IMG/VR virus record: IMGVR_UViG_3300035208_006553 | Location: 32,001 to 96,000 of that record | Source of the DNA: a virus | Lineage: Duplodnaviria; Caudoviricetes | Reading direction: 5' to 3' (one strand) | Length of the DNA stretch: 64,000 nucleotides | Notes under the pieces: model-generated | Seen by the model: only the letters and a program-made list of their open reading frames with translations | The model's database searches: none | Told to the model about the DNA's origin: nothing | Position numbers and translations under genes: made by a program | Shown here: positions 1 through 64,000 of the stretch, in pieces | Layout: every line of letters begins with the position of its first letter | How positions within the stretch are numbered: position 1 is the first letter of the stretch

Positions 1-61
1 TAAACCTGTTGAACAATGGTCTAATAAAGATTTTCTTCTTTATTTCTCTCAAAGATATAGA

Positions 62-3284: not shown

Positions 3285-4174
3285 CTCAAACATTGCCGGA
3301 TGTACAGAACAGAGAAGATCATAGAGGAATAGAACTTGACAGAGTAGGAGTTACAAATGTAAAGTTTCCTATAACTGTTTTACGTAAAGATGGAACTACT
3401 TCACCGGTTTCAGCAAAAGTAAAATTATTTGCTAACTTGCCAAAACTGGCTAAAGGGCATAATTTAAGTAGATTTTCAGAAGTATTAGTAGAGTTTGGAC
3501 CTAATCATAATTTATCTTCTAGTACAATGCTTCCATTCCTTGAAAGAATGCAAAATCATTTAGGTAGTAGAGATGTATATGCAAGATTTGAGTTTGACTA
3601 TTATATTGAAAAAACCGCTCCTGTAAGTAAGAAAAAAGCGCCTATGGCTTACGCATGTGCTTTTATAGGTATTAAAAAGAATGGAAGTTATTCTTTTATA
3701 TTAGAAGTAAATGTTACTGCAGCAAGTGTTTGTCCGTGTTCTAGAGAAATGAGTTTGTTAGAAAATCTTTCAGAAAAAGGCTTAAATGAAAAATATTCTA
3801 ATCTTACTTCTCCAGAAATTAAGTTGATTACGAATAAAGTAGGTATGGGTGCACATAATCAACGTTCCCAAATTAAAGTGGAAGTTTTAATTGATTTAAA
3901 TAGTACATTTTGGATAGAAGATTTAGTAGCAATGATTGAAGCACAAGCATCTGCTCCTACCTACCCTATTTTAAAAAGACCTGATGAGAAGAGTGTTACT
4001 GAAACCGGCTATAAGAATGCTAAATTTTCAGAAGATATAGCTCGCGATGTACAATTAGTTATTCAAAGTAGAAAAGAAGTATTAGCATGGGCTTTGAAAG
4101 TACAAAATGAAGAAAGCATACATCCTTTTGATGTGGTATCAAGTTCTAAATCTGATAATTGGAAATTTTATTAA
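3281..4174 (+). CDS. folE2: GTP cyclohydrolase IB (FolE2)
   Basis: LPDVQ, DRVGV, GHNLSRF, CPCS, AHNQRS, LKRPDE, EDIAR and ESIH motifs. Confidence 0.93.
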   Translation: MTQTLPDVQNREDHRGIELDRVGVTNVKFPITVLRKDGTTSPVSAKVKLFANLPKLAKGHNLSRFSEVLVEFGPNHNLSSSTMLPFLERMQNHLGSRDVYARFEFDYYIEKTAPVSKKKAPMAYACAFIGIKKNGSYSFILEVNVTAASVCPCSREMSLLENLSEKGLNEKYSNLTSPEIKLITNKVGMGAHNQRSQIKVEVLIDLNSTFWIEDLVAMIEAQASAPTYPILKRPDEKSVTETGYKNAKFSEDIARDVQLVIQSRKEVLAWALKVQNEESIHPFDVVSSSKSDNWKFY

Positions 4175-4355
4175 TAGTATATGTTTTATAAATGTAAAAG
4201 AAAGTAGTTAAAAGTTAACTTAAATACTGTAATTTTATGTTGAAAATAAAAGAATTTCATAGAAGATACTTCTTGATTTATTGTATCCTTTATTACATAT
4301 TGTAGTTGTAAGAATTATAAAAATAATCAGGAGAAAAAAAAATGGATGCATCAAC
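4068..4355. repeat. 288-bp direct repeat, copy 1 (copy 2 at 32661-32948)
   Basis: Identical from GTAGAAAAGAAG to GGATGCATCAAC; 4381-4410 also equals 32971-33000. Confidence 0.95.
4273..4301 (+). promoter_or_regulatory. Candidate sigma70-type promoter inside the duplicated segment
   Basis: TTGATT-N17-CATATT upstream of an AGGAG RBS and the ATG at 4342. Confidence 0.4.
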
Positions 4356-4557
4356 GCCCGCAATAAGCATAACAGAAAAATTAAATATTCTAGAACAAGA
4401 AGTAAAACAATTATTACAATGCACAGATAAGGCTGCAAAGAAAATTGTAAAAGTAATGGATTTGTATATTAGTCCTGATTTTTCAGAATCGGATGATGCT
4501 GAATTGACAAAAGAATATTTATGCGTTGCAAAACTGGCACATATAAAGTTAAATTAA
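4342..4557 (+). CDS. Hypothetical protein
   Basis: AGGAG RBS; its 5' part is duplicated at 32935. Confidence 0.6.
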   Translation: MDASTPAISITEKLNILEQEVKQLLQCTDKAAKKIVKVMDLYISPDFSESDDAELTKEYLCVAKLAHIKLN

Positions 4558-9904: not shown

Positions 9905-10716
9905 TGTTCCATAGTATATTATGTCCAGCTGCGTGTCTTGATCAATTTGCAATCCGTTCAAAGTTTCATTTAATATTACCTCATCTCTTAGACAAATTAC
10001 CTCAGTATAAAGAGTTTTATAAAGAGAGAGCAAAACAAGGAGATCATATACTTCTTGATAATTCTATATTTGAACATGGTTACAGTTTCGATTACAAGAA
10101 AATGATTAAGTATGCTGAAGAAATGGAATTAACTGAAATTTCAGCTCCCGAGGTGCTTAAAGATAGAGAAGCATCTTTAGTGTTGAGAGAAGAGTTTTTG
10201 AATTATTATGTTAAAAGTGGAAGTAAAGTTAAAATTTTAGCTGTAGCTCAAGGTAAAAATCTTGAAGAGGTTGAAGAAAGTTATTTTGAGTTGTTAAGAA
10301 TACCGGAAATTACTACTCTTGGATTACCTTTTGATCTTGATGATCAGGGAGATTCTGCATATAGCGGTGGAGAGAGAATTAGAAGTTTGACTTTACGAAG
10401 AGTTGTAAATAGATGGGGTTTAGTTGATCGTATTAATGCAATATCATATTCTAAAGGTATTGAATTAAAGCCAACTCATTTAATGGGTTTAAGTGATGCT
10501 GTTGAATTGCAGAAATATAAAGATTTTCCTTGGATTAGATCTAATGATTCTTCAACAGCTTTTGTGCATGGTGTTAATCTTATTAAATATACTGATAGAG
10601 GGTTACCATGTGAAAAAATAAGTCAAAAATTAGATTTTGCAGGATGGAAGATTTTACATCCTCAACAAGTTGAATTTATAAATTATAATATAGATAAAAT
10701 ATTAAGCTGGATTTAA
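9904..10716 (+). CDS. dpdA: DpdA-like TGT-fold deazaguanine DNA transglycosylase
   Basis: ILLDNS, LAVAQG, HLMG and SNDSS motifs spaced as in TGT barrels; sits in the que cluster beside DNA polymerase. Confidence 0.72.
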   Translation: MFHSILCPAACLDQFAIRSKFHLILPHLLDKLPQYKEFYKERAKQGDHILLDNSIFEHGYSFDYKKMIKYAEEMELTEISAPEVLKDREASLVLREEFLNYYVKSGSKVKILAVAQGKNLEEVEESYFELLRIPEITTLGLPFDLDDQGDSAYSGGERIRSLTLRRVVNRWGLVDRINAISYSKGIELKPTHLMGLSDAVELQKYKDFPWIRSNDSSTAFVHGVNLIKYTDRGLPCEKISQKLDFAGWKILHPQQVEFINYNIDKILSWI

Positions 10717-13843: not shown

Positions 13844-15478
13844 ATGCGATCAAGGACTCTTTTATATGATTTAGAAGCAAGAACTAAATTAAAAGTCGGC
13901 ATGGATGCTTTATCTGAAATGGTAAAAGTAACTCTAGGTCCAAAAGGTAATAATGTAATTATAGAAAAAATATCAGGTTTTCCTCTTATTACCAAAGATG
14001 GTGTAACTGTGGCTAGAGAAATTTACCTCAGTGATCCTATTGAAAATATGGGAGCTCAAGTGTTAAAAGAAGTAGCTATGAAGACTAATGAAACTGCTGG
14101 AGATGGAACAACAACAGCAACAGTTCTTGCACACGCTTTTATTACAGAAGGTATTAAAAATTTAACTGCTGGTTCTAATCCTATGGATTTAAAGAGAGGT
14201 ATTGATATTGCAGTTAAACATGTTACAGATAGGTTAAAAGAGTTAAGTCGTCCAGTTACAGGTAAGGAAGATATAATAAGTGTAGCTTCCATTTCTGCAA
14301 ATAATGATAATCAAATAGGGAATGATATAGCTAATTCTATTGAAAAAGCAGGTAACGAAGGAATAGTTATCGTTGAAGATTCTAAAGATTCAGATACAAT
14401 TATTGAGGTATCTGAAGGAATGCAAATTGATAGAGGATATCAGCATCCTTATTTTATTAATAAAACTGTTACAATGGAAGTTGAGTTAAAAGGGACTTAT
14501 ATATTATTTTATAATGGAAAGTTACATCAAATGCACGATCTAGCAAGAATAGCTGAAGCTGTTATTCAAAAAGAAGCTGCATCTTTTTTAGTTATTGCTG
14601 ATGAATTTAGTCAAGAAGTTTTGCAATTGTTAGTAATGAATAAAATGAAAATGGGTAGACAATTTTGTGCTGTTATTTCACCCGGTTTTGGAGATCGTAA
14701 AGTAGACTTATTGAATGATATGGCTGCTTTAACTGGAGGTACTGTGTTTGGTGGGGATTTATCTTTACCCCTTGCTCGAGCAGATATATCTCAATTAGGT
14801 TACGCTGACAAAGTATTAGTTGATAAGAATAAAACAGTTATAGTTGGCGGCAAAGGTAAGTCTGAGAAAGTGAAAGAAAGAGTTGATCAAATAAGGATGT
14901 TACTTGACAATACTATCGTTGACTTCGATAAACAGAGATTACAAGAAAGGTTAGGTAAGTTAACCGGTGGTATAGTTGTCTTGCGAGTAGGCGCAATTAC
15001 AGAAACAGAGCTAAAAGAAAAGAAAATGAGAATAGAAGATGCTCTTCATGCTACACGAGCTGCTCTCGATGAAGGTATAGTACCTGGAGGAGGCGTAGCT
15101 TTAGTAAGAGCAAAAGAAATTATAAATAAGATTGATACTTCAAATTTAAGAGAGGATCAAAAAACCGGTATTAATATAGTAAAAAAAGCTTTAGATATTC
15201 CATTTTTAAGTATTTGCTCTAATGCAGGATTAACAGGAGAGGTAATTTTACAGGAAGTTATACAAGAAAATTTAGAATATGGATATGATTCCTTGAACGA
15301 TAAATATGGGAATATGTTTGAAATGGGAGTTATTGATCCAACTAAAGTTGTTAGGTTGGCTTTAGAAAATGCTGCTTCAATTGCTGGATTATTTCTTACT
15401 ACTAAAGGTGTTATTGCAGAATCAAAAGAAGAGAAGGAGTATATTGATAAATTAATGTCTCAAAGTCCTGCAAATTAG
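13844..15478 (+). CDS. groEL: Chaperonin GroEL
   Basis: TLGPKG, TKDGVTVA, AGDGTTTATVLA, PGFGDR, EGIVPGGG, IDPTKV. Confidence 0.97.
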   Translation: MRSRTLLYDLEARTKLKVGMDALSEMVKVTLGPKGNNVIIEKISGFPLITKDGVTVAREIYLSDPIENMGAQVLKEVAMKTNETAGDGTTTATVLAHAFITEGIKNLTAGSNPMDLKRGIDIAVKHVTDRLKELSRPVTGKEDIISVASISANNDNQIGNDIANSIEKAGNEGIVIVEDSKDSDTIIEVSEGMQIDRGYQHPYFINKTVTMEVELKGTYILFYNGKLHQMHDLARIAEAVIQKEAASFLVIADEFSQEVLQLLVMNKMKMGRQFCAVISPGFGDRKVDLLNDMAALTGGTVFGGDLSLPLARADISQLGYADKVLVDKNKTVIVGGKGKSEKVKERVDQIRMLLDNTIVDFDKQRLQERLGKLTGGIVVLRVGAITETELKEKKMRIEDALHATRAALDEGIVPGGGVALVRAKEIINKIDTSNLREDQKTGINIVKKALDIPFLSICSNAGLTGEVILQEVIQENLEYGYDSLNDKYGNMFEMGVIDPTKVVRLALENAASIAGLFLTTKGVIAESKEEKEYIDKLMSQSPAN

Positions 15479-21581: not shown

Positions 21582-21825
21582 ATGAACCACACTTCTCCTT
21601 CTCTTGAGACTAGAAAGAAGCAGTCTGATGCAAAAAAGGGATATAAACATACCGAAGAAGCTAAAAGGAAAATGAGTGCTGCCCGCAAAGGCAGACCTAG
21701 TACGAGAAAAGGAATATCCCGTACAGAAGAAGTTAAACGAAAATTATCTATTTTTTAATACTGGCAAAAAGCACACACAGGAATCAATACAAAAAATGTC
21801 TACTTCTCATAAAGGACAAATATGA
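21582..21825 (+). pseudogene. NUMOD3-repeat remnant of a homing endonuclease, frameshifted
   Basis: SLETRKKQSDAKKG, HTEEAKRKMSAARKG, RTEEVKRKLS; a frameshift in T6 (21751-21756) continues GKKHTQESIQKMSTSHKG. Confidence 0.7.
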
Positions 21826-23590: not shown

Positions 23591-24424
23591 ATGTTAAAAA
23601 TTTATCAAAATTTTAAATGCAATAAAGAATTTTCTACAGATAAATTAAAACGAAGGTTTTGTAGTAGGCGTTGTTCAGGAGTATATTCAGCCGAAAAGAA
23701 AAAAGAATCTGGAAAGAAATACTATCATTCTATAGAAACGAAGCGAAAAATAAGTAAAGGTAACAGAGGTAAGCGAAAGCCTTCTCCATTTAAAGGGATG
23801 ACAGCTGCAAAGAGGTATGGAAGTGAAGAGAGGGCTCAAGAAATTCAAAATAGAAGAAGATTGAAATTAATAGGAAAGAAACACACAGAAGAGCACAAAC
23901 AAAAAATAGGGAATGCAGGGAGGGGCAGGAAAAAGACAGTAGCAACTCGTTTAAGAATGAGTGAATCTCGTAAAGGAATGAAACAGCCAGAGTATGTTAA
24001 AAAGAAAATTTCTAAAACTGTTCGTTTAAATAAAATACAGCAATTAGAGAAGAATAGCCAAATATCAAAACCTAGTTATAATATTAGATCTTGTGAATTT
24101 TTTAAATATTTAGATATTTTATATAAAACAGAAGGAAGATATGCTATTTACGGAGGAGGAGAATATTTTATTAAAGAACTAGGTTATTTTCCTGATTATA
24201 TAAATTTTGATAAAAAATGGATTATTGAATGGGATGAACCTATGCATTTTACTAAGGAAGGTAATTTAAGAGAAAAAGATAAAGTTAGACAACAAGAGAT
24301 TCAAAAGATGTTTCCTGATTATAAATTTATAAGAATCAGGGCTACGTTGAATTTATATAGACTATTACAAAGGAATATGAAAAAATTAAAATTAGTTAAA
24401 CTTTCAAAAACAGGGTTTAATTAA
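23591..24424 (+). CDS. Free-standing homing endonuclease (NUMOD3 repeats plus Vsr/PD-(D/E)XK-like nuclease)
   Basis: FCSRRC; HSIETKRKISKG, HTEEHKQKIG; YFPD..IIEWDEPMH...KDKVRQ. Confidence 0.75.
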   Translation: MLKIYQNFKCNKEFSTDKLKRRFCSRRCSGVYSAEKKKESGKKYYHSIETKRKISKGNRGKRKPSPFKGMTAAKRYGSEERAQEIQNRRRLKLIGKKHTEEHKQKIGNAGRGRKKTVATRLRMSESRKGMKQPEYVKKKISKTVRLNKIQQLEKNSQISKPSYNIRSCEFFKYLDILYKTEGRYAIYGGGEYFIKELGYFPDYINFDKKWIIEWDEPMHFTKEGNLREKDKVRQQEIQKMFPDYKFIRIRATLNLYRLLQRNMKKLKLVKLSKTGFN

Positions 24425-31526: not shown

Positions 31527-31712
31527 ATGTATCAGTCTGATAATATAAAAAATAAATTTAGATTAAAAATATTTTTATTGTTGAAGAAAAATACAGATCA
31601 ATTTTTAGAAACAAAAAATGAATTAATAAAGAAAAATGTATTAAGACGGATAAACAAATTATTAGACTGTATTTATTTATTTATTAAATCTAAAAGAATT
31701 AGTTTAAGCTAA
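31527..31712 (+). CDS. Small basic protein, paralogue of 35128-35298
   Basis: KIFLLLKKNTD...LRRINKLLDCIYL versus KIFLLLKENTD...LRRINKLLTCIYL. Confidence 0.55.
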   Translation: MYQSDNIKNKFRLKIFLLLKKNTDQFLETKNELIKKNVLRRINKLLDCIYLFIKSKRISLS

Positions 31713-31724
31713 TTTGAGGATACA

Positions 31725-32664
31725 ATGAACCAAGAACTAAACAAAATAATAAGCGATTTAGAATATGCTGCTTATAATTTATGTAACGGCAAAAAAGATA
31801 CAGATTTACCGCCGGGAATAATTAACTCTACTGGCGCAGAGGATTCTCTTTTAATTGCTATACGTGATTTGAAAGAGATAACCAATCGCCACGAACCGCT
31901 AGTTAGCGGGAAACTTGCGGACTTTACAGTTTCTGAGCTAATGATAAAAATGAATGAAATTATCGGACAATATCCAGTGCAAGGTAATTATGCAGATGAT
32001 GGAAGATATACTTACCCCGGTAGATGGAATGCTTTACTTAAATACATAAAAGAAAAATGAAAACAGTGATTACTAAAAACGGAAATCTTGCTTGTAACAT
32101 TACAAGTGACGAATTGGAACAAATTAAAGAAGATTTGCGACCGACAACAAGACGCAATGATTCTCTATACGAAATATTTAAGCAAATAGCAGAAGAAGAT
32201 AAAAAGGTGAATCCAGAACTTTACGAAGATACTACCCGCTAATAATTACAACGAAACGATGTGACGGTTAATTTAACACGAACATAAAAGAAGAAATAAT
32301 GGATTTAAACCAACTTTATATTGAAAATTGTGAGGGCTTTGACGAGTATATGCCCGATGGTTCTTGCCGAAACGGATTGCGAATGACACTTGATGGATTT
32401 CAAAATGCACTAAGAAAATTGAGTGGTCAAATTGAACCGCAAGTTATAAAGCAAACGGCGGAAGCAATAAGAGAACTTTTACAGTTAGCACAAGCAACCC
32501 ATACTTATTGTGAGGATGGTTATTATAGTTGCCCGAAAGCTGAAGGTGGATGCTATAATGGTGCTTATAAAGAAGATGAATGTAATTGCGGTGCAGACAA
32601 ACAAAACGAACGAGTTACAGAATTAAAAACAATTTTAATGAATGATAGACGTTTGACGTTGTAG
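31725..32664 (+). other. Cassette-region CDSs 31725-32060, 32057-32242 and 32299-32664 (hypothetical)
   Basis: attC arms inside the coding regions (GTTAGCGGG 31902, GTTATAAAG 32443); stop at 32242 lies in CCCGCTAAT. Confidence 0.6.
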
Positions 32665-32948
32665 AAAAGAAGTATTAGCATGGGCTTTGAAAGTACAAAA
32701 TGAAGAAAGCATACATCCTTTTGATGTGGTATCAAGTTCTAAATCTGATAATTGGAAATTTTATTAATAGTATATGTTTTATAAATGTAAAAGAAAGTAG
32801 TTAAAAGTTAACTTAAATACTGTAATTTTATGTTGAAAATAAAAGAATTTCATAGAAGATACTTCTTGATTTATTGTATCCTTTATTACATATTGTAGTT
32901 GTAAGAATTATAAAAATAATCAGGAGAAAAAAAAATGGATGCATCAAC
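32661..32948. repeat. 288-bp direct repeat, copy 2, inserted in array 1
   Basis: Identical to 4068-4355. Confidence 0.95.
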
Positions 32949-32999
32949 TTACAAAAACACACCAACAAAATTAAATATTCTAGAACAAGAAGTAAAACA

Positions 33000-33197
33000 A
33001 TATAGCGGAAATGCGTTTAGCCGGACACGGGAATTTAATAAAATAAATTTGAGGTTGATATGAAAGATTACCAAGTAACAATAGACTTAGCAAAAAACAT
33101 TTGAACATGGAAGAGGTTGACCCCGATGTATGGGCTGCAGACGTGGCAAAGCTCATACGAATAATTGAAAGTATTCCAGCTGAAACGCTGATTAGGC
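33000..33197 (-). repeat. Degenerate attC-like site (both core triplets mutated)
   Basis: ATAGCGGAAATGCGTTTAGCCGGA ... TCCAGCTGAAACGCTGATTAGGC; closely resembles the 34394 site. Confidence 0.6.
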
Positions 33198-33421
33198 GAG
33201 GGCGTTCTTTGCCCGATGTGGCTTGCGGTAATTGTAAACAAATAGAGTTTTGGTATATGAAAATAAAAATCCAAGACGAATGGATGGACGGAGTAAGCGG
33301 GGAATATAATTTTGTTAAACAATACTGCGATGCAATTACTGACCACGACTGGAAAATAATAAAAGTTACACAGTATAGAGGCGACAAGGAAGAAGAAATT
33401 GAAAGCAAGCCATCTGCCTAA
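33060..33421 (+). pseudogene. Cassette gene with an apparent frameshift in A6
   Basis: GAGG RBS and ATG 33060; one extra A at 33092-33097 joins it to the 33101-33421 frame. Confidence 0.5.
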
Positions 33422-33606
33422 CGGCTGAGCCATAACCCGCCGAGCGGGAATTGAAAACTAAAATAGGAATTGAAAAATGAAAAACATTAACGATTGGATA
33501 ACAGAAAATTTTCTTGCAAGCGAGAGAGAAAATAAATTAAATGATCTTAAAGAAATAATTTTATCCGACCGAGCAAGCGAGGTCGGTGTTAATGGCATCG
33601 TTATGC
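33416..33606 (-). repeat. attC-like site
   Basis: GCCTAAC.GGCTGA.GCCATAACCCGCC pairs with GGTCGGTGTTAATGGC.ATC.GTTATGC. Confidence 0.8.
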
Positions 33607-33935
33607 CGAAAATTGGTGAACCGGCACTTAGTAACTGGACATTGGTTTGCAACTTGTTAGATGAGTTTCTGCAAGCTAATCGCCACGAAGTTTTTGTTAT
33701 AGCGAGTGAGCATACCGAAGGTAGCTCTGCGAACGGTGCGGTTGCGGACGTACAGGAGTTGTTAAGGGCAATAAGAGATTTAGACCAAAGGGAAAGGTTG
33801 GTTCTCACTATGTATTACAACGAAAAATTAACGTTAAAAGAAATTGCATCTATCTTTGATTGGACGATTGACGCAACACAAAAACAGTTTGAAAATATTA
33901 TAAACAAACTAAAGATAGCAACCGCATCGCTATAA
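33477..33935 (+). CDS. Cassette protein with C-terminal sigma70 region-4 HTH
   Basis: AIRDLDQRERLVLTMYYNEKLTLKEIASIF; contains two attC arms (33600, 33696). Confidence 0.75.
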   Translation: MKNINDWITENFLASERENKLNDLKEIILSDRASEVGVNGIVMPKIGEPALSNWTLVCNLLDEFLQANRHEVFVIASEHTEGSSANGAVADVQELLRAIRDLDQRERLVLTMYYNEKLTLKEIASIFDWTIDATQKQFENIINKLKIATASL

Positions 33936-34060
33936 CGTAGTTGCGGCTAAACTGCACCGACATAGGAAAAAATAATTAAATGAATTATAAATTCACGCAT
34001 ATCATCAAATGCGAAAATCTAAGACACCGTAAGGTGTCAGATTTGAGCCGCTGGTTATGT
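33930..34060 (-). repeat. attC-like site
   Basis: ATAAC.GTAGTT.GCGGCTAAACTGCACC pairs with GGTG(T)CAG(A)TTT(G)AGCCGC.TG.GTTAT. Confidence 0.88.
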
Positions 34061-34070
34061 GGAAAATTTT

Positions 34071-34153
34071 GGAAGGTTGCGAGCAATGGCGCTCAAGCGG
34101 TCTTGAAAACCGTGCTATCGGCAACGATAAGGGTTCGATTCCTTAACCTTCCG
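34071..34153 (+). tRNA. tRNA-Ser (anticodon TGA)
   Basis: Acceptor GGAAGGT/ACCTTCC, anticodon arm GCGGT-CTTGAAA-ACCGT, long variable arm, GGTTCGATTCC; no encoded CCA. Confidence 0.85.
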
Positions 34154-34156
34154 CTA

Positions 34157-34285
34157 GGTCGAGTTCGATTCTCGATGGGTTACTGACATGCTGGTGCGAA
34201 TGGAGTTAGGTTCGATTCCTAATGATTACGGTCTTAGAAATAAGATAACTCTGAGAGCTGAGTATGACAGCCGGGAAAGACCGGC
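34157..34285 (+). ncRNA. Structured inter-tRNA element with two T-arm-like hairpins and a terminal hairpin
   Basis: TCGAG-TTCGATT-CTCGA, TTAGG-TTCGATT-CCTAA, GCCGG-GAAAGA-CCGGC. Confidence 0.45.
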
Positions 34286-34289
34286 GAAT

Positions 34290-34372
34290 GGAAGATTGGC
34301 AGAGTGGTAATGCAACGGCTTGCTAAGCCGCACAACAGAAATGTTGCAGAGGTTCGATCCCTCTATCTTCCG
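34290..34372 (+). tRNA. tRNA-Ser (anticodon GCT)
   Basis: Acceptor GGAAGAT/ATCTTCC, TGGCAGAGTGG D arm, CGGC-TTGCTAA-GCCG, long variable arm, GGTTCGATCC. Confidence 0.9.
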
Positions 34373-34393
34373 CAAGATGCGAAAAATTTTTCC

Positions 34394-34598
34394 ACATAAC
34401 GGAGTTGCCCATAAGCGGACACGGAAATTTAATAAATAAATTTGAGGTTACAAATGCAAGACGAAAAATTAAACGAAATTAAAAGACGGATAGATGTTAC
34501 TTACCAGGGGGACAGAAATCTTGCCGTAATGTTACAAGATGTTATTTATCTCTATAAAAAACTGGAAGAAAGTGTTCCGCTTGATGGGCTGGTTATGA
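34394..34598 (-). repeat. attC-like site
   Basis: CATAAC.GGAGTT.GCCCATAAGCGGACAC pairs with GTG(T)TCCGCTT(G)ATGGGC.TG.GTTATG. Confidence 0.88.
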
Positions 34599-34747
34599 CG
34601 CAAGCCGACTACTTAAAAGAAATTGAGACAGCCATAGAAAACACAGTTAATGAATATGACCATATATTAAATATGAAGCGATACCCGCAAGTTGAAGATA
34701 TGGAAAAGTGGATTAGGAATTTGAGAGAAGCCATACAACCATTTTAG
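34454..34747 (+). CDS. Cassette hypothetical protein
   Basis: GAGG RBS and ATG inside the attC loop. Confidence 0.6.
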   Translation: MQDEKLNEIKRRIDVTYQGDRNLAVMLQDVIYLYKKLEESVPLDGLVMTQADYLKEIETAIENTVNEYDHILNMKRYPQVEDMEKWIRNLREAIQPF

Positions 34748-34755
34748 GCTTGTCG

Positions 34756-34887
34756 GTATAACGGATCAGCGACAACCCGCAAGCGGTAGTTTAATAAAAA
34801 CTAAATTGATAAAGGAATGATATATGAAAACAAAGAAAAATAAACCGACAAGCGATAGCGCAGTCGGCGTTGGTTGCGTAGTTAGTT
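34756..34887 (-). repeat. attC-like site
   Basis: TATAAC.GGATCA.GCGACAACCCG pairs with CGG(C)GTT(G)GTTGC.GTA.GTTAG. Confidence 0.78.
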
Positions 34888-35099
34888 TGCCGAACGAAAT
34901 TTTGATAGAGGTTGAAGGCAGACAAAAAAGAGTTTTAACGAAAGATTATGTAACCGCAAAGACTAAACAATTGCAAGAATTTGGTTACACAAAATTAACA
35001 GAAGAAGAAGTTTCTTCTGAATTACAAAATATATTAAGCAATAAACCGCTTAATGTTATTGGGATGTTTATGAAAGATGACATCGTGAGGTCAAACTAA
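34824..35099 (+). CDS. Cassette hypothetical protein
   Basis: Start in the attC loop; stop TAA is the core of the next site. Confidence 0.65.
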   Translation: MKTKKNKPTSDSAVGVGCVVSLPNEILIEVEGRQKRVLTKDYVTAKTKQLQEFGYTKLTEEEVSSELQNILSNKPLNVIGMFMKDDIVRSN

Positions 35100-35304
35100 C
35101 GTAGTTGAAACTAAAGCGTGAGCGAACATGGAAGACCAATTGAGAGTAAAGATATTTTTATTGTTGAAGGAAAATACGGATTTGTTCTTAACAACAAATA
35201 ATAAATTAATAAGAAGAAACTCATTGAGGCGAATAAACAAATTATTGACCTGTATTTATCTATTGAACTTAAAAGAGCGAATCGCTTTGAGTTTTTAGTT
35301 ATAA
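35094..35304 (-). repeat. attC-like site with a whole ORF in its loop
   Basis: CTAAC.GTAGTTG.AAACTAAAGCG pairs with CGCTTT(G)AGTTT.TTA.GTTAT. Confidence 0.78.
35128..35298 (+). CDS. 56-aa protein inside an attC loop (not in ORF track)
   Basis: MEDQLRVKIFLLLKENTD...; paralogue at 31527. Confidence 0.55.
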   Translation: MEDQLRVKIFLLLKENTDLFLTTNNKLIRRNSLRRINKLLTCIYLLNLKERIALSF

Positions 35305-35329
35305 ATTTTTTGGCGGAAGGAGCAAGACA

Positions 35330-35515
35330 ATGAAAATTATATTAGTACCACATTGTAAAAAATGCCCTCACGGTGCGCAATGGAATTTAGAAGGAACTGA
35401 ATATATGTGTGGAAAGAAAACAAAAATTAATTCTGATAAAAATATACCGGAATGGTGCCCTTTGATGGAAGCAACGGAGTTCTTAAGAAAGGTTAATAGC
35501 CAAAAACAATTATAA
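35330..35515 (+). CDS. Small Cys-rich cassette protein
   Basis: C..CPH...C...IPEWCPL; AAGGAG RBS; stop in TTATAAC. Confidence 0.65.
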   Translation: MKIILVPHCKKCPHGAQWNLEGTEYMCGKKTKINSDKNIPEWCPLMEATEFLRKVNSQKQL

Positions 35516-35794
35516 CGTGGCGCGGGCTTACCCGTTTGCGGTGAATGAAAAACTAAATTAGGAGAAACAACAATGATAGGTTTTAACAGAGTAGCAAAAT
35601 TTGATGATGGCAGATTGATGTATAGAAATATAATAACTAACGACTATACAAGGCTCTCTTTTGTGTATAGGGACGACATTAAATATAAACCTTACCCAAC
35701 TATGCAAATAACTTGTACAGGGTGGAGTTTTAGCTGGTGGAGGTTTTGGGTATGGCACGAAAAGAAGCAAATCAGGCTGAAACGCTAGTTAGCC
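35510..35794 (-). repeat. attC-like site enclosing ORF 35573-35788
   Basis: TTATAAC.GTGGC.GCGGGCTTACCCGTTTGC pairs imperfectly with GCAAATCAGGCTGAAACGC.TA.GTTAGCC. Confidence 0.65.
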
Positions 35795-35945
35795 AAGCCG
35801 CTTCTCGGGCGGTGTTGCTTGCGGAAATGAGAGAAGGATTACGAATAGCAATGAATAATTGGAAACGCTGTTATTATGGATATGGGAAAGAAGTTATGAA
35901 AGAAACAAGCGAAGAAACTTTGGCTAATTTACATTTAGATGATGA

Positions 35946-36410
35946 GTGGAGTGGATTAAATTAAACAAAACACAAAGCGTGTTAATGAAAATGAGCGAAG
36001 GTAATCCCGGAGCTTTAACAACGATGATGCAAATAATGATGGAACACGATAATATTGATCCGCAGGCGATGATGGGTGGAATGGGTGTGATATTATTATT
36101 TGACACATTCCAAATTTATGGCTCATCAATTTATATTTTGTTCAACGACCAATGTAACAGGGATGTGAGGGAGTTATTGATGCTAATGAGAGCTACGCAA
36201 CTTGGGTTATTCAGTAGTCGCAACCTTAAACAGATTGCCGATGACCAAATGGGAAAACATTTATTAAGCAAAGAGCAGATGGATGAACTTGATAAAAAAG
36301 TATGTGAGCAATTAGAACAATTTACAACCAGAGAAGCGTGGGAGAACGCAAAGAAGCATCCGTATAACGGATCTCCGTTTGTGCCGGTTGCGACATTAAT
36401 TAAAAAATAG
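35946..36410 (+). CDS. Hypothetical phage protein
   Basis: MSEGNPGAL...IYGSSIYILFND.C; reads into a degenerate attC arm at 36362. Confidence 0.6.
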   Translation: MEWIKLNKTQSVLMKMSEGNPGALTTMMQIMMEHDNIDPQAMMGGMGVILLFDTFQIYGSSIYILFNDQCNRDVRELLMLMRATQLGLFSSRNLKQIADDQMGKHLLSKEQMDELDKKVCEQLEQFTTREAWENAKKHPYNGSPFVPVATLIKK

Positions 36411-36498
36411 ATTTGGAGAAACAAGATGGGAGAAAACGAAACTAAGAATTGCGAACAAACGATGTGTCACTTAAACAGCAGAGACAAAAGAGAAAATT

Positions 36499-46657: not shown

Positions 46658-47436
46658 TAGACTGGAGACAAATATTAAGCTGGCAAGTAGAGACTAACGA
46701 ATTTTACGAATTAGAAAGATTACTCAATAATAAACATTACTCTTATCATCTAGAAGGAAATACATTTATTATTGATCATGAAGGATATGTATATCTTCCT
46801 TTTCTTACATCTCTACCTAATAATGTACAATTTAATAACAGAGGATATGTATATCTTTATTATCTTACATCTTTACCTAATAACATACAATTTAATAATA
46901 GAGGAGATGTAGATCTTAATTCTCTTACATCTCTTCCAGATAACATACAATTTAATAACAGAGGAAATGTATATCTTAATTCTCTTACCTCTCTACCTAA
47001 TAATGTACAATTTAATAATAGAGGATATGTAAATCTTGCTTCTCTTTTATCTTTACCTAATAACAAATATGATATATTTAAAAACGATGGAGTAATTTCT
47101 TATAATCACCGTAACTCTCAATTTAATCCTAAAGATAGAGAAAAATTGAGTTGGAAAGAAGTTGAATGGTCAGATCTTAAAGGTTGGTTAGTAAAAGATA
47201 CTACAGGAGGTCGTCCTTATTGGGCTGAAGAAGATTATAAAGGAGAAGTGTATTATCTTGTAATTAGTGTAAGTGAGCTACCAAATAAAAATTTAGATAA
47301 GTTTAATATGATTGCACTTCAAGGATCTAGTCAAGATGGTGTAATTAATGAATATGAACAAGGTGCAAAATTTACAGAACCCTATTGGGTATATAAAGAT
47401 TTACGAAATATAATACCTATACGAAAAATATTTTAA
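46654..47436 (+). CDS. Protein with 20-aa leucine-rich (LRR-like) repeats
   Basis: About five GxVxLxxLTSLPNNxQFNNR units. Confidence 0.75.
   Translation: MIDWRQILSWQVETNEFYELERLLNNKHYSYHLEGNTFIIDHEGYVYLPFLTSLPNNVQFNNRGYVYLYYLTSLPNNIQFNNRGDVDLNSLTSLPDNIQFNNRGNVYLNSLTSLPNNVQFNNRGYVNLASLLSLPNNKYDIFKNDGVISYNHRNSQFNPKDREKLSWKEVEWSDLKGWLVKDTTGGRPYWAEEDYKGEVYYLVISVSELPNKNLDKFNMIALQGSSQDGVINEYEQGAKFTEPYWVYKDLRNIIPIRKIF
46783..47064 (+). repeat. 60-bp tandem repeat (about 4.7 units); second copy at about 63865-64000
   Basis: GGA NAT GTA NAT CTT NNT TNT CTT ACA TCT..CAA TTT AAT AAY AGA. Confidence 0.9.
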
Positions 47437-53020: not shown

Positions 53021-54178
53021 ATGAAAATATCTATCGTATTGGGAGCAGGTTTTGGAGATGAAGGTAAGGGACGTACAGTTTCTTACCTTGTGTCTCAATC
53101 AAAAAAACCTCTTGTAATTAGATTTAGTGGGGGTCACCAAGCTGGTCATACCGTATTTGTTAACAATAAACAACATATTTTTTCTCATTTTGGATCAGGT
53201 ACTCTTCAAAATGCTCCTACTTATTGGAGTAAGTTTTGTACAACTTACCCGATAGGGTTAGTAAATGAGTGGACGGCTTTAAAAGATCAAGGAATAAATT
53301 CTTCCATTTTTATTGATCCTCTATCACCCGTTACAACTCCTTTTGATGTTTACGCTAATCGGTATGTAAATGCAAATAACCAACACGGGACTTGCGGTGC
53401 AGGTTTTGGCACAACAATTGAAAGACAAGAAAATCATTACAAATTGCAGTTTATAGATTTATTTTATCATAGTGTATTAGAAGCTAAACTAAAAAATATT
53501 GAAGATTATTATAAAGCTAAAGGGTGGGTTTTTTCTAATGAACCTGATTTCAAAAATCGCATGAAATGCTTTTTTGATAGTGTTGATATTATTAATCATT
53601 ATGATATAGGAAACATTCAAGACTTTCAGTTTAATGATTTTGATCATGTCATCTTTGAAGGTTCTCAAGGGCTTCTTTTAGATAAAGATATAGGATTCTT
53701 TCCTAATGTAACAAGGTCAAATACAACAAGTGAAAATGCATTAGCATTAATAGATGAGCTTTTTAATACAGTAGAAAAGGATATTACTACTTTTTTTGTT
53801 ACTAGATGTTACCAAACACGTCACGGTAATGGTTATATGTCGGATGAGAGGTTTTTAGACTTAAAAAATATTGAAAATGAAACTAATATTTTAAATAGTT
53901 ACCAAGGAAAGTTCAGAACAGGTTATTTAGATTTAAGTTTACTTAGGTATGCTATTTATAGAGAAACTTTAAACAATCCAAAAGGAATTAAATATTGTTT
54001 AGTAGTAACATGCATTGATCAACTATTAAATTCTACTTTTACAGTAAAGGATGGTGGTAAATTAAGAGTTATTGGTTTGAATGATTTTCGTTTAATTATA
54101 TCTAATGTATTGTTTTCATATGGAAGAGCAACAGATAAAATAGATATTATTGCATACACGGAAGGAAGTAAATTTTAA
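53021..54178 (+). CDS. purA: Adenylosuccinate synthetase-like protein
   Basis: GFGDEGKG, GGHQAGHT, FEGSQG.LLD, FPNVTRS, TRHGNG. Confidence 0.85.
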   Translation: MKISIVLGAGFGDEGKGRTVSYLVSQSKKPLVIRFSGGHQAGHTVFVNNKQHIFSHFGSGTLQNAPTYWSKFCTTYPIGLVNEWTALKDQGINSSIFIDPLSPVTTPFDVYANRYVNANNQHGTCGAGFGTTIERQENHYKLQFIDLFYHSVLEAKLKNIEDYYKAKGWVFSNEPDFKNRMKCFFDSVDIINHYDIGNIQDFQFNDFDHVIFEGSQGLLLDKDIGFFPNVTRSNTTSENALALIDELFNTVEKDITTFFVTRCYQTRHGNGYMSDERFLDLKNIENETNILNSYQGKFRTGYLDLSLLRYAIYRETLNNPKGIKYCLVVTCIDQLLNSTFTVKDGGKLRVIGLNDFRLIISNVLFSYGRATDKIDIIAYTEGSKF

Positions 54179-57131: not shown

Positions 57132-57327
57132 AACTAACAGAGTTGGTTTTAAAGGGTTTTACGGAATAAACACTAAAATAAAATTGAGGTAAAAATGTTA
57201 AAATGTAATAACAAATTTTGCTATAATAATTCAATAGCTGGATGTTCACTTGAGTTTGAAACACAAACTGATTGCGATACATATAATGACTATAATGAAA
57301 GCAACCTTGTTGAAAACCGAGTTAGCC
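57132..57327 (-). repeat. attC-like site
   Basis: CTAAC.AGAGTT.GGTTTTAAAGGGTT pairs with AACCTT(G)TT(G)AAAACC.GA.GTTAG. Confidence 0.82.
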
Positions 57328-57444
57328 AAGCCGCTTCTCGGGCGGTGCAAGCCGCCGAAAATTTAGAACAAAAGATTAAAGAGTTTGCAGACATACGCGG
57401 ATTAAAGTGTTCAAAAACTTTGAAAAGTTCCTGGAGGGGTTAAT

Positions 57445-62701: not shown

Positions 62702-64000
62702 TTGAAATTGAGCAATCCTTTAAGCTACCAAGAGTTTCCAGAGAGTGTAAAGCAATTTGTATCTTACTGTTTTAAAGATTGTCTATCTAAGTATTCTTTG
62801 TTAGATAATAAATTACAAGCACTTTACATTTCATTTGAACCTCGTCCCTTACAATACCCAGATTATGTTAAAGCAGAGCTTATTTTACCTAACAAAATAG
62901 CTTATTTCGATAAAGGAAATATTAGGTGGGATGGTATTATGCATGAAATTACTCATTTAATTCAGTATCACCTAAACGGAAAAGAAGAAAATATACCCTA
63001 TCTTTCTAATTATAGCAAGGTTGCATCGTTTAATTTTGAGAATTATCAAAAAGATGAATCTGAAGTACATGCTTTTAAAATACAAGCAGCTTTTGTGGAA
63101 TATAGAAAACAAAGATTAAATTGGAATAGTATTAAAGTAAGTAATTCATCTTTAAATAATCAAACTACTTATTACATATATGATGCTAAAACTGGAATAT
63201 TTATAAAAGAAGTTTATAGTTTAGAAGAAATCAGTCAGTTATATGGAATTTCTCCAGCATTTTCTAAACGTGCTATTGAGAACAACTGGGCTATGAAAGG
63301 TGTTTATATTTTAGATGCAAGTAAGGAAAAAAAGAAAAGATTACGTATACCTAATCGCCAAGAAAGAGAATCAGAGATAAGAGGAGTAAAGATAATAGGA
63401 ACAAATCCCGAAACAGGAACTGAATATTCTTTTAATTCTGTAAGTGAAGCTGCAAGAGAATTACATATTAATAGACTTAGTATAATTCATGTATTAAAAG
63501 AAAGACAGGGTACTGCAGGGGGAATGAAGTGGAGGTATGCAGAGAATTCTAAAAAAGAAATAAACAAGAATCAATGGCTTAATAAAACATTTGTATTAAA
63601 TGATTCTACTAAATTAGAAGTAGTTGATGTGAACGATGCACAGGAACCTATTTTTGTGTTGCGAGATGTCAACACTAAAAAGTTATTTAGATATAATGAA
63701 AGTTCGTTAAGAGAAAATATTCTAAAAGGTATGTTAGTTGAAATTTCTCAAAATAAACTCTCTTGGCAAGTAGAGACTAACGAATTTTACGAATTAGAAA
63801 GATTACTCAATAATAAACATTACTCTTATCATTTAGAAGGAAATACATTTATTATTGATCATGGAGGAAATGTATATCTTTATTCTCTTACATCTCTACC
63901 AGATAACATACAATTTAATAACAGAGGATATGTAGATCTTGATTCTCTTACATCTTTACCTAATAACATACAATTTAATAATGAAGGAAATGTATATCTT
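62702..64000 (+). CDS. Multidomain protein truncated by the window end: HExxH zinc peptidase, NUMOD1-like HTH and LRR-like repeats (not in ORF track)
   Basis: Frame open from TTG 62702 to the end: MHEITHLIQ..SEVHA; FNSVSEAARELHI..TAGGMKWRY; KLSWQVETNEF followed by repeats. Confidence 0.75.
   Translation, partial: MKLSNPLSYQEFPESVKQFVSYCFKDCLSKYSLLDNKLQALYISFEPRPLQYPDYVKAELILPNKIAYFDKGNIRWDGIMHEITHLIQYHLNGKEENIPYLSNYSKVASFNFENYQKDESEVHAFKIQAAFVEYRKQRLNWNSIKVSNSSLNNQTTYYIYDAKTGIFIKEVYSLEEISQLYGISPAFSKRAIENNWAMKGVYILDASKEKKKRLRIPNRQERESEIRGVKIIGTNPETGTEYSFNSVSEAARELHINRLSIIHVLKERQGTAGGMKWRYAENSKKEINKNQWLNKTFVLNDSTKLEVVDVNDAQEPIFVLRDVNTKKLFRYNESSLRENILKGMLVEISQNKLSWQVETNEFYELERLLNNKHYSYHLEGNTFIIDHGGNVYLYSLTSLPDNIQFNNRGYVDLDSLTSLPNNIQFNNEGNVYL

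What the first reader, a model, noticed from the sequence alone, without database searches (positions are those of the whole stretch)
31885..36468. Phage-borne array of inverted, gene-overlapping attC-like cassettes
Seen: short genes are separated by imperfect inverted repeats of form xxTAAC-N6/7-stem...stem-N2/3-GTTAxx (33416-33606, 33930-34060, 34394-34598, 34756-34887, 35094-35304, 35510-35794; degenerate at 32235, 33000, 36362). The unpaired bases lie on the right arm, so the minus strand reads like a canonical attC start (TAAC CAGCG GCT-C-AAATCTG-A-C; TAAC CAGCC CAT-C-AAGCGG-A-AC). The sites are therefore antisense to the genes. The loops hold the RBS and first codons of the next gene, and the left core TAA is often the previous gene's stop (32242, 33421, 33935, 35099, 35515). 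Known: integron attC sites have R''/R' cores and extrahelical bases, recombine as folded single strands at G|TT, are usually about 57-141 bp and normally lie 3' of the gene. Inference: with the sites on the minus strand the crossover falls at TAA|C, so each unit (RBS, gene, stop) moves intact. This would be a cassette-shuffling accessory-gene system in a phage, with long coding loops and an asymmetric spacer that standard detectors may miss.
Basis: partly seen in the sequence, partly recalled or inferred. Interest (0 to 1): 0.95.

Follow-up and report, generated by a model that had tools for sequence, protein, structure and literature searches.

The report
Reversed integron-type cassette array in phage
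A run of small genes in an uncultured groundwater/landfill phage is a real array of integron-style swappable gene cassettes, but the folded recombination sites are built into the start of each gene, face the opposite way from bacterial integrons, and no recombinase gene was found.

Summary
Window 32245-35301 carries six co-oriented sites of the form TAAC-N6-stem...stem-N2/3-GTTA, plus decayed or half sites at 31902, 33003-33194, 33696, 35513-35791 and 36365, and a lone site at 57135-57324.

In 63 non-redundant sites from this phage and about 25 other low-GC phage contigs the stems covary. The + (coding) strand has the published attC bottom-strand geometry: AAC on the 5' arm, and extrahelical G16, optional base 20 and T23/24 on the 3' arm, with a 6-bp stem between first and last.

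The sites differ from canonical attC in four ways. The central spacer is asymmetric (6/2). The terminal loop is 80-250 nt and holds the RBS and first 20-78 codons. The R box is extended (GTTA+5 bp, extra T, then more) and pairs across the cargo. The genes are sense to the recombining strand.

Homology between unrelated phages breaks exactly at TAAC, but also at GTTA, so site modules and gene bodies assort separately and in frame.

No tyrosine or serine recombinase and no Y1 (HUH) transposase was found in any array-bearing sequence. Phage attC clusters without an integrase are published (Qi 2023). This design is not in the papers I searched. This scan has noted similar arrays on other DNA.

The parts
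31885..31905 (+). Lone right-arm remnant plus R'' core (GTTA at 31902-31905, in frame as Val) inside gene 31725-32060. No left partner was found.
   Evidence: The flank GTTAGCGGGAAACT is shared with a full site in the unrelated phage record G002 (91.7% over 36 nt). Sequence read.
32245..32456 (+). Decayed site. The left core is CAAC and the right core is GTTA at 32443-32446 (frame 0 of gene 32299-32664).
   Evidence: The covariance model R1 gives 20.8 bits, E 0.018. Sequence.
33003..33194 (+). Decayed site s0. The left core is mutated to TAGC (33003-33006) and the right core to ATTA (33191-33194). The arms are GCGTTTAGCCGGACAC and GTATTCCAGCTGAAACGC. The ORF that starts in the loop stops after 14 codons.
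   Evidence: The homologous intact site in L003 has GTTA (case D). The arm family recurs in L002, L003, G002 and about 20 metagenome contigs.
33419..33603 (+). Site s1. Its loop holds the RBS and the first 41 codons of the sigma-region-4 gene 33477-33935.
   Evidence: R1 gives 42.1 bits, E 2e-7. The module is 98.5% identical in L004-L006, where it is joined to a different gene body.
33696..33936 (+). Gene-body module (sigma-70 region 4) bounded by R'' GTTATAGCGA (33696) and its complement TCGCTATAAC (33927-33936). It is fused here behind a truncated earlier body.
   Evidence: Pfam Sigma70_r4 match. The same body follows other site modules in L002 and L067, with the junction exactly at GTTA. 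Loose ends before 33696 appear in 9 contigs.
33933..34057 (+). Site s2, of the short class with three extrahelical bases: CAG[A]TTT[G]AGCCGC tg GTTA.
   Evidence: DNA fold z -3.7. R1 gives 97 bits, but this site was in the training set.
34054..34400 (+). Cargo of two tRNA-Ser genes (34071-34154 with anticodon TGA, 34290-34373 with anticodon GCT), clamped by a 17-nt inverted repeat GTTATGTGGAAAATTTT / AAATTTTTCCACATAAC. This repeat is the extended R'' / R' pair.
   Evidence: ARAGORN. Inverted repeat I4, 94% complementary.
34397..34595 (+). Site s3, with two extrahelical bases: GTG[T]TCCGCTT[G]ATGGGC tg GTTA. Its loop holds the RBS and the first 49 codons of gene 34445-34747.
   Evidence: The DNA minimum-energy fold reproduces the R box, spacer, L stem and both bulges. 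R1 gives 57.9 bits, E 6e-11.
34759..34884 (+). Site s4, with weaker stems. Its loop holds the start of gene 34824-35099.
   Evidence: R1 gives 53.8 bits, E 5e-10. My own scan score is 18. It is not recovered by the single-sequence fold.
35097..35301 (+). Site s5. The loop ORF 35128-35298 ends at the right core. The body gene 35330-35515 has its own RBS.
   Evidence: R1 gives 19.9 bits, E 0.03. The module is 94.7% identical in L004, and identity stops exactly at TAAC and at GTTA.
35513..35791 (+). Hybrid or decayed site s6. It has a left core TAAC (35513) and a right core GTTA (35788), but the arms do not pair with each other.
   Evidence: No hit in my scan or with R1. The right arm belongs to the GGCTGAAACGC family, and the R'' flank is identical over 27 nt to that of s8. 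The metagenome variant X5 joins core 33936 directly to this site.
36365..36368 (+). Lone left core (TATAAC GGATCT) inside ORF 35946-36410. It marks the right-hand limit of the array.
   Evidence: Sequence. No right partner appears.
57135..57324 (+). Lone site s8, 21 kb outside the array (TAAC agagtt GGTTTT...AAAACC ga GTTA). Its loop holds the start of ORF 57195-57443.
   Evidence: Scan score 19. Sequence. Its right arm recurs in L002, joined at GTTA to the sigma body. It is not detected by R1 under the default filters.

Best explanation
Window 32245-36368 is an integron-type gene-cassette array carried by a lytic-looking phage that has no integrase gene of its own. In integron terms it is a cluster of attC sites lacking an integrase (CALIN), in a variant design.

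Each site is a structure-defined hairpin formed by the + (coding) strand when it is single-stranded. Reading inward, it has these parts:
- an R box, TAAC/GTTA;
- an unpaired spacer of 6 nt on the 5' arm and 2 nt on the 3' arm;
- a 6-bp stem, then an extrahelical G;
- a second 6-bp stem, sometimes with a middle extra base, then an extrahelical T;
- a further 4-7 bp;
- a long terminal loop that contains the RBS, the start codon and the first 20-78 codons of the cassette's gene.

I infer that a tyrosine recombinase supplied in trans exchanges one strand at TAA|C of the folded + strand, as IntI does on attC bottom strands. The enzyme could come from the host or from an unsequenced part of the phage, and could be IntI-like or Xer-like. 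Such an exchange would move whole cassettes (site + gene + TAA stop).

Each cassette's ends (GTTA+flank and flank'+TAAC) are complementary, which is the signature of a circular intermediate.

A second class of events at G|TTA swaps the site module against the gene body. This is most simply recombination of the other strand, which in integrons puts the crossover in R''. GTT is almost always a codon, so these swaps give in-frame fusions.

The cargo seen in this family points to an accessory or anti-defence gene pool exchanged among unrelated phages: DNA methyltransferases, a sigma-region-4 protein, tRNAs and many ORFans.

Shown: the anatomy, the covariation, the strand asymmetry, the paired cassette ends, the breakpoints at the cores, and the variability within populations.
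Inferred: folding as single-stranded DNA, the enzyme class, circular intermediates, and events on the top strand.
For: 1. Architecture and significance. Five or six clustered sites share the same geometry, against 0-1 in shuffles. The covariance model gives E-values down to 6e-11 in the window. It gives 72 hits at E<=0.001 in array-bearing loci, all on the gene strand, and none in 13 control loci totalling about 150 kb.

2. Covariation. RNAalifold predicts the bulged stem unaided. Of the pair cells, 88.9% are paired, and 12 of 22 pairs show double changes. None of 500 shuffles reached the observed values, and slid controls gave 28-43% pairing.

3. attC bottom-strand geometry. In 63 non-redundant sites nearly all extra bases are on the 3' arm (3 exceptions). 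G comes after 6 bp, T after 12 bp, and an optional A/T/C after 9 bp. G lies 8 nt from GTT, which is position 16 when position 1 is the last base of a 7-nt R''. The published rule is G16, optional 20 and T23/24, a 6-bp stem between first and last, extra bases on the arm opposite AAC, and R pairing extendable to 9-11 nt (PMC5027507; PMC2727003).

4. Cassette ends. R''(n) against R'(n+1) is 6.7/10 identical. The within-site value is 3.4 and the random value 3.3. T stands at -6 from TAAC in 37 of 47 pairs, against 35% background.

5. Breakpoints. Homology blocks start at TAAC in 23 cases at -1/0. They end at GTTA+2..4 in 7 cases or +15..23 in 30 cases. Exact junctions where the parent sequences share only GTTA or TAAC are shown.

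6. Spread. Arm sequences identical to those in relatives' arrays, and a flank shared with this window, occur in G002, which shares essentially no proteins with this phage. Arrays lie beside a terminase, DnaB, DnaC-like or SbcCD-like genes in other contigs.

7. Population variability. Other assemblies break at the array. Logan contigs are shattered, reach up to 9-16x the flank depth, and show alternative joints at cores.

8. G.T against A.C mismatches are 15 to 6, favouring folding of the + strand.
Against: - No recombinase was found. PF00589 is absent from seven viral records, six of which bear arrays and one of which has terminal repeats. No resolvase or Y1 transposase was found. A local tyrosine-recombinase HMM found nothing in the 24 array-related metagenome loci searched, G000, or the two further CPR-bin contigs, although it found the positive controls.
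- The spacer (6/2) and the 6-bp L stem depart from the canonical 5-6/5-6 spacer and 3-bp L box. Half of the sites exceed the 57-141 nt range.
- Many breakpoints lie at GTTA, which simple bottom-strand integron recombination does not produce.
- The comparison set was gathered through one arm family, so it is biased and partly redundant.
- Only assembled contigs were available, not raw reads, so no circular cassette or excision event was observed.
- The folding strand is also the mRNA strand, so a role for the RNA is not excluded.
Confidence: 0.65

Rival explanations
1. The sites are recombination hot spots that need no dedicated site-specific recombinase. Hairpins or cruciforms extruded at the sites would be cut or stalled and then repaired by the phage's own general machinery (SbcCD/Mre11-Rad50-like nuclease, UvsX or exonuclease plus annealase). 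This would resemble the shuffling of small genes ascribed to promoter/stem-loop motifs (PeSLs) in T4-type phages.
For: No recombinase gene occurs in any array-bearing sequence. The phages encode UvsX, an SbcC/SbcD-like pair or a PD-(D/E)XK exonuclease. The arrays sit among small early or replication-region genes, like the hyperplastic regions of T4-type phages (PMC2839356 and PMC4122927, listed). Breakpoints occur at both cores.
Against: Different sites share only 4-nt cores plus TAA/TTGA, so homologous recombination has nothing to work on. Junctions occur where the parents share only GTTA. Hairpin processing does not explain the invariant AAC/GTT, the fixed G16/N20/T23-24 bulges and the fixed 6/2 spacer. 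Sigma-70-type promoters are not enriched in the loops: 11 were found against 14.7 expected.
Confidence: 0.15
2. The primary function is at the RNA level. Long-range stems in read-through transcripts would enclose each gene's ribosome-binding site and 5' coding region, and a 17-bp stem would enclose the tRNA pair. They would serve for endonuclease processing or translational control. The recombination breakpoints would then be a by-product.
For: The strand that folds best is the sense strand: G.T 15 against A.C 6, and all sites are co-oriented with the genes. The tRNA-Ser pair is flanked by a near-perfect 17-bp stem, like rRNA/tRNA processing stems. RBS and start codons lie inside the loops.
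Against: An RNA role does not explain why homology between unrelated phages stops exactly at TAAC or GTTA. It does not explain why cassette ends pair across the cargo with a fixed extra T. It does not explain why the bulge pattern reproduces the attC bottom-strand rule base for base. No Rfam search was run, so no known RNA family was tested.
Confidence: 0.08
3. The modules are single-strand transposon-like elements (IS200/IS605 or REP-like), cut at tetranucleotides next to imperfect hairpins by a HUH (Y1) transposase.
For: The cores are tetranucleotides next to imperfect hairpins with an unpaired base. Both ends of a module act as breakpoints.
Against: No Y1_Tnp was found in the five array-bearing viral records searched. 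The arms pair with each other across 80-250 nt instead of forming separate subterminal hairpins. The cores are inverted copies (AAC/GTT), as in tyrosine-recombinase sites.
Confidence: 0.03

Closest known systems
Integron attC sites and clusters of attC sites lacking an integrase (CALINs), including those reported in virulent phages (Qi et al. 2023, PMC9892861)
   Same: Both are structure-defined hairpin sites with AAC/GTT cores. Both have extrahelical G16, an optional base at 20 and T23/24 on the arm opposite AAC, with a 6-bp stem between first and last. Stem sequences vary and covary. Arrays consist of single-gene cassettes with complementary ends and have no integrase nearby. DNA methyltransferases are among the cargo.
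   Different: - The spacer is 6-7 nt on the 5' arm and only 2-3 nt on the 3' arm.
- The L stem is 6 bp, not 3.
- The terminal loop is 80-250 nt and codes for the RBS and the N-terminus of the cassette's gene.
- The R box is extended to GTTA+5 bp, an extra T, then at least 4 bp.
- The genes are sense to the recombinogenic-type strand.
- Breakpoints occur at both cores.
- Arrays are dense (up to 10 sites in 5-6 kb), whereas the published phage CALINs are defined by a minimum of two attC sites.
Sedentary chromosomal integrons with homogeneous attC repeats (Vibrio cholerae VCRs)
   Same: The same site family is attached to many different cargos. Sites are long, with a branched terminal structure and three extrahelical bases (VCR: G16 T20 T24, PMC2727003).
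   Different: No IntI or attI platform is present. The sites overlap the 5' coding region of the cargo instead of following the gene. The host elements are phages of several unrelated lineages.
PeSL promoter/stem-loop motifs of T4-type phages (Arbiol 2010, PMC2839356; Comeau 2014, PMC4122927)
   Same: Both are repeated structured motifs between small accessory genes in variable regions of large lytic phages, and both are associated with gain, loss and replacement of gene modules.
   Different: PeSLs are conserved in sequence (promoter plus terminator hairpin) and act through homology. Here only 4-nt cores and bulge positions are conserved, the arms lie 80-250 nt apart, and junctions form without flanking homology.
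Folded single-stranded attP of CTX phage recombined by host XerCD
   Same: A phage-borne site exists only as a folded single strand and is recombined by a host tyrosine recombinase through one strand exchange. It is named in PMC5027507 as the only other known case of a tyrosine recombinase acting on single-stranded DNA.
   Different: CTX has one site for genome integration at dif, not an array of cassettes. No dif-like 28-bp site was identified here. Involvement of Xer is only a hypothesis for this array.

Membership tests
Integron attC site (folded bottom strand) | Inverted R'/R'' boxes with conserved AAC (5' arm of the bottom strand) and GTT (3' arm) | tested here: met
   TAAC and GTTA were search anchors, so their invariance in all 63 non-redundant sites is by construction. 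The A2 alignment and the exact homology breakpoints at these tetranucleotides support them independently. R'' is GTTA[T/G/A]..., and R' is ..[A/C]TAAC.
Integron attC site (folded bottom strand) | Extrahelical bases on the arm opposite AAC: G at position 16, an optional base at 20, T at 23/24, with a 6-bp stem between first and last | tested here: met
   The bulge patterns are (6,G),(12,T) in 20 sites, (6,G),(9,A/T/C),(12,T) in 12, and the equivalent (5,G),(11,T) in 7. Nearly all are on the 3' arm. G lies 8 nt from GTT, which is position 16 by the numbering of PMC2727003. The rule is quoted from PMC5027507.
Integron attC site (folded bottom strand) | Unpaired central spacer of about 5-6 nt on each arm | tested here: not met
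   The 5' arm has 6 nt in 53 of 63 sites (consensus GGAGTT). The 3' arm has only 2 nt in 46 of 63 sites, or 3 nt. The adjacent stem is 6 bp instead of 3.
Integron attC site (folded bottom strand) | Length 57-141 nt | tested here: inconclusive
   32 sites are 117-131 nt, within the range. 31 sites are 161-273 nt, outside it.
Integron attC site (folded bottom strand) | Sequence not conserved, structure conserved (compensatory changes) | tested here: met
   12 of 22 pairs show double changes, and no shuffle out of 500 reached the observed values. RNAalifold found 8 of 12 pairs compensatory.
Integron attC site (folded bottom strand) | Crossover at AA|C of R', with cassette ends complementary (circular intermediate) | tested here: met
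   This test is indirect. Homology blocks start at TAAC, exact junctions are shown, and R''(n)/R'(n+1) pair at 6.7/10 against 3.3 for random pairs. Additional breakpoints at GTTA are not expected from bottom-strand events alone.
Integron attC site (folded bottom strand) | Recognised and recombined by an integron integrase; detected by the IntegronFinder/HattCI attC models | not testable with these tools
   Neither the programs nor a wet assay were available. My own model R1 found nothing in one MAG that encodes a true IntI, but only 150 of 1576 candidates were scored.
Complete integron (intI + attI + array) | Integron integrase gene (TIGR02249 or PF00589 with the IntI insertion) next to the array | tested here: not met
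   No PF00589 match in G000, G002 or G005-G008. A local tyrosine-recombinase HMM found nothing in 24 metagenome loci.
CALIN (cluster of attC sites lacking an integrase) | Two or more attC sites in a row with no integrase nearby | tested here: met
   Six model-supported co-oriented sites lie in 32245-35311, and no integrase is present in the 108-kb record. This depends on accepting the sites as attC variants.
PeSL (promoter-early stem-loop) motifs | A conserved sequence motif made of a terminator-like hairpin and an early promoter, repeated between genes | tested here: not met
   Site sequences differ from one another apart from the cores. Sigma-70-like promoters number 11 against 14.7 expected.
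IS200/IS605-type single-strand transposons | A Y1 HUH transposase and separate subterminal hairpins at each end | tested here: not met
   No PF01797 match in five viral records. The arms pair with each other across the loop.

The most novel reading that the evidence does not exclude
This would be a phage-specific offshoot of the integron in which the recombination site is fused to the 5' end of every cassette gene and both R-box cores are used. The system would then shuffle whole genes, and would also shuffle 5' modules (RBS plus a 20-78-codon N-terminal peptide) against gene bodies in a fixed reading frame. That would make it a natural in-frame protein-fusion shuffler. It would be run by a host recombinase that is not a classical IntI, for example a Xer-type enzyme of Patescibacteria, in whose genome bins three such arrays were found.
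Probability: 0.3. Interest if true: 0.85.

Novelty: new variant of a known kind. Interest (0 to 1): 0.72.

Why it matters
Integrons are regarded as a bacterial device, with promoterless genes that precede their attC site and an adjacent integrase. Published phage cases are clusters of as few as two canonical attC sites.

This window and about 25 related contigs show dense arrays in several unrelated phage lineages. The site keeps the exact extrahelical-base code of attC but is merged with the gene's translation start, reversed relative to the gene, and clamped by an extended R box.

If the sites are functional, this has several consequences:
- Phages would pool and exchange accessory genes (methyltransferases, a sigma-like factor, tRNAs, many ORFans) by site-specific recombination, independently of homology.
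- attC sites can tolerate long coding loops and a strongly asymmetric spacer.
- Standard detectors probably undercount such arrays.
- The 'hypervariable early gene' regions of uncultured phages would have a concrete, testable mechanism.
- The in-frame GTT core suggests that natural protein-fusion shuffling is possible.

Tried and rejected
- Cultured-phage database, distant blastn of the region: only the tRNA-Ser genes matched.
- IMG/VR search with the 1386-aa neighbouring protein: one weak relative.
- IMG/VR search with the sigma C-terminus: none.
- Recombinase searches were all negative:
  - PF00589 in G000, G001, G002 and G005-G008;
  - PF00239 and PF01797 in five records;
  - a local tyrosine-recombinase HMM on 24 metagenome loci plus G000 and two CPR-bin contigs;
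  - no protein family other than DnaB and TerL is shared among the array-bearing viral records.
- The genome search could not reach the metagenome records behind L019, L027, L036, L037 and L048.
- TIGR02249 in 301 Patescibacteria genomes: none reached the IntI cut-off. Twenty-kb neighbourhoods of four of their Xer-like genes hold no arrays, only single hairpins of a different 4/1 geometry.
- The IntI found in MAG G004 was reached through a chance match of my search pattern inside an Ig-repeat gene. It is unrelated to the arrays, and R1 found no sites there.
- G001 and the 29 high-GC metagenome loci are chance pattern matches with no sites.
- A 'promoter in every loop' is not supported. The sigma-70 consensus scan is below the shuffled expectation. 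My early reading of a Bacteroidetes -7 motif was dropped because strong Shine-Dalgarno sequences are present.
- Joints of the 'goes back' kind in the laid contigs are not at cores and are not evidence of circles.
- Host assignment rests only on three small contigs binned into Patescibacteria MAGs. I did not test another phylum as a control.

Full report
CONTEXT. The window is bases 32001-96000 of a 108,379-bp IMG/VR virus record that CheckV estimates at 61% complete. The record has about 30% G+C and nearly all long ORFs lie on +. It encodes a family-B DNA polymerase, a DnaB-like helicase, UvsX, GroEL, a large terminase and a PurZ-like enzyme. Cultured phages match only the two tRNA-Ser genes. 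The DNA occurs in groundwater and landfill metagenomes.

THE OBSERVATION. A scan written for the stated architecture found sites at 33419-33603, 33933-34057, 34397-34595, 34759-34884 and 35097-35301. All are on +, with spacers of 6-7 and 2-3 nt. A lone site lies at 57135-57324. Shuffled genomes gave 0-1 hit at score 22 or more.

A covariance model built from 11 short sites of this and related loci gave six + strand hits in 32245-35311, with E-values from 7e-20 to 0.03. It gave 72 hits at E<=0.001 in other array-bearing loci, always on the gene strand. It gave none in about 150 kb of control loci.

At 33003-33194 both cores are mutated (TAGC and ATTA), and the ORF inside stops after 14 codons. 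The 35510-35794 site has both cores, but its arms do not pair. At 36362 there is only a left core.

ANATOMY. I parsed 63 non-redundant sites. The form is 5'-TAAC, six unpaired bases (consensus GGAGTT), a 6-bp stem, a second 6-bp stem, 4-7 further pairs, and a loop. The 3' arm then carries T, six bases (or 3 + A/T/C + 3), G, six bases, two unpaired bases, and GTTA.

- Nearly all extra bases are on the 3' arm (3 exceptions).
- Lengths fall into two classes, 117-131 nt and 161-273 nt.
- RNAalifold predicts the bulged stem without guidance.
- 88.9% of pair cells are paired and 12 of 22 pairs show double changes. None of 500 shuffles reached the observed values, and slid controls gave 28-43%.
- G.T outnumbers A.C by 15 to 6 on the + strand.
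- The DNA fold of 34393-34599 reproduces the R box, spacer, stems and both bulges.

COMPARISON WITH attC. Bouvier 2009 numbers the bottom strand from the last base of R'' and gives VCR2/1 extrahelical bases G16, T20 and T24. That paper also states that R pairing often extends to 9-11 nt, and that the crossover lies in R' for the bottom strand and in R'' for the top strand.

Nivina 2016 gives the following:
- AAC lies in R' of the bottom strand.
- The extra bases lie on the opposite arm: G16, optional 20, T23/24.
- A 6-bp stem is required between the first and last extra base.
- The spacer is 5-6 nt on each arm.
- Site length is 57-141 nt.

With a 7-nt R'', the G here is base 16, the middle base is 20, and the T is 23 or 24. 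The + strand therefore carries the bottom-strand code exactly.

The departures are the 6/2 spacer with a 6-bp L stem, the long loops, and the orientation: the genes are sense to this strand.

COUPLING TO GENES. The left-core TAA is the stop of an ORF of at least 40 codons in 53 of 86 sites. Of 65 ORFs that start in the loop and continue past the right core, 51 read GTT as a codon. Ten use frame 1. Four use frame 2, which the TGA in TTGA blocks.

CASSETTE ENDS. The bases after GTTA of site n pair with the bases before TAAC of site n+1 at 6.7 of 10. Within a site the figure is 3.4, and for random pairs 3.3. The usual form is GTTA+5 bp, one extra T on the R' side, then further pairs. T stands at -6 in 37 of 47 pairs against a 35% background.

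In the window, the two tRNA-Ser genes are clamped by a 17-nt pair of this kind. The sigma body is clamped by GTTATAGCGA / TCGCTATAAC.

COMPARATIVE EVIDENCE. Homologues of the sigma-region-4 protein are mosaics. P0003 and P0004 share its first 44 residues and nothing else. P0002 shares only the C-terminal domain. P0005 shares only the stretch that starts at core 33696.

Their contigs, and contigs found through one arm sequence, are dense arrays. The arrays lie beside a large or small terminase, DnaB, DnaC-like or SbcCD-like genes.

G002 shares essentially no proteins with this phage (a single 20-residue match at E 7e-4). It nevertheless carries an arm identical to one in L002 and L003, and an R'' flank identical to 31902 in the window.

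Identity stops exactly at TAAC and at GTTA. Over 313 internal block ends, starts pile up at the left core. Ends pile up just after the right core, or 15-23 nt beyond it at the end of the extended R''. Some recombinants have parents that share only GTTA (case C), which argues against homologous exchange.

Other assemblies of the same strain break at the array. Laid contigs are fragmented there, reach up to 9-16x the flank depth, and show alternative joints such as 33936 joined to the 35513 site.

WHAT IS MISSING. No tyrosine or serine recombinase and no Y1 (HUH) transposase was found in any array-bearing sequence. One of the records searched has terminal repeats. No array-linked protein family emerged.

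Three small contigs in Patescibacteria genome bins carry arrays. None of 301 sampled genomes of that phylum has a match above the IntI cut-off, and the Xer-like loci I inspected have no arrays. Sigma-70-type promoters are not enriched in the loops.

INTERPRETATION. The best reading is an integron-type cassette array whose sites are attC variants acting as folded + strand DNA, served in trans by a tyrosine recombinase.
- Events at TAA|C would move whole cassettes.
- Events at G|TTA would swap site modules against gene bodies in frame. These are most simply recombination of the other strand, which puts the crossover in R''.

Rival readings are less consistent with the fixed cores and the fixed bulge code, but they are not excluded. 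They are hairpin-stimulated general recombination, an RNA role, and HUH transposition.

PRIOR WORK. Qi et al. 2023 reported 17 integrase-less attC clusters in phages and showed IntI1 recombining five of six phage attC sites. I found no paper describing the present design.

Earlier notes of this scan describe similar TAAC...GTTA arrays on other DNA, some beside a Xer-like recombinase. I could confirm the site features here, but not the recombinase link.

CAVEATS. The comparison set is biased towards one arm family and is partly redundant. Only assembled contigs were available, so no circles or excision events were seen. E-values from the model are rough.

Noticed in passing
window 4068-4411 and 32661-33001: These two stretches are a 344-bp direct repeat at 96.5% identity. 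It comprises the end of an ORF, an AT-rich spacer, a strong RBS and about 25 codons. The second copy sits exactly between the TAG stop of gene 32299-32664 and the C of the decayed TAGC core. A landfill variant (X5) lacks it and joins TAG directly to CGGAAATGCG.
   Followed up: partly
window 53021-54178: This ORF matches the PHROG family for 2-aminoadenine (PurZ-type) adenylosuccinate synthetase (E 1e-55). The phage DNA may therefore carry a modified adenine.
   Followed up: no
window 35788-35814 and 57321-57347: The 27 nt that begin at the right cores of s6 and of the lone site s8 are identical (GTTAGCCAAGCCGCTTCTCGGGCGGTG, encoding VSQAASRAV). The flanks on both sides are unrelated.
   Followed up: partly
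window 31555-31697 versus 35138-35264: The small ORF 31527-31712, just left of the array, is a 77-80% DNA paralogue of the loop ORF of site s5, but it has no flanking arms. It may be a stranded loop module.
   Followed up: partly
window 13844-15478: A phage-encoded GroEL-type chaperonin (PHROG 5725, E 1e-154).
   Followed up: no
window 21582-21758 and 23591-24424: Two ORFs carry NUMOD3 motifs in precomputed Pfam hits, one of them faint. This is the DNA-binding module of homing endonucleases.
   Followed up: no
L067 (G003:C48), L118 (G070:C31), L112 (G130:C139): Small contigs made almost entirely of such cassettes are binned into three Patescibacteria (CPR) genome bins. One also encodes a small terminase and a C5 DNA methylase. 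This may hint at the host phylum, or it may be a binning artefact.
   Followed up: partly
window 46681-46797 versus 63764-63880: A 117-nt segment is repeated at 97% identity, seen when L015 was compared with the window. It probably belongs to the repeated LRR module that other first-stage notes describe.
   Followed up: no
L101 (G272:C14) 9937-10010 and L100, L103: Single near-perfect hairpins of the form TAAC-N4-stem...stem-N1-GTTA lie roughly 0.2-6 kb from Xer-like recombinase genes in three Patescibacteria genomes; only the one in L101 is close (about 200 nt). The geometry differs from the phage sites and there are no arrays.
   Followed up: partly
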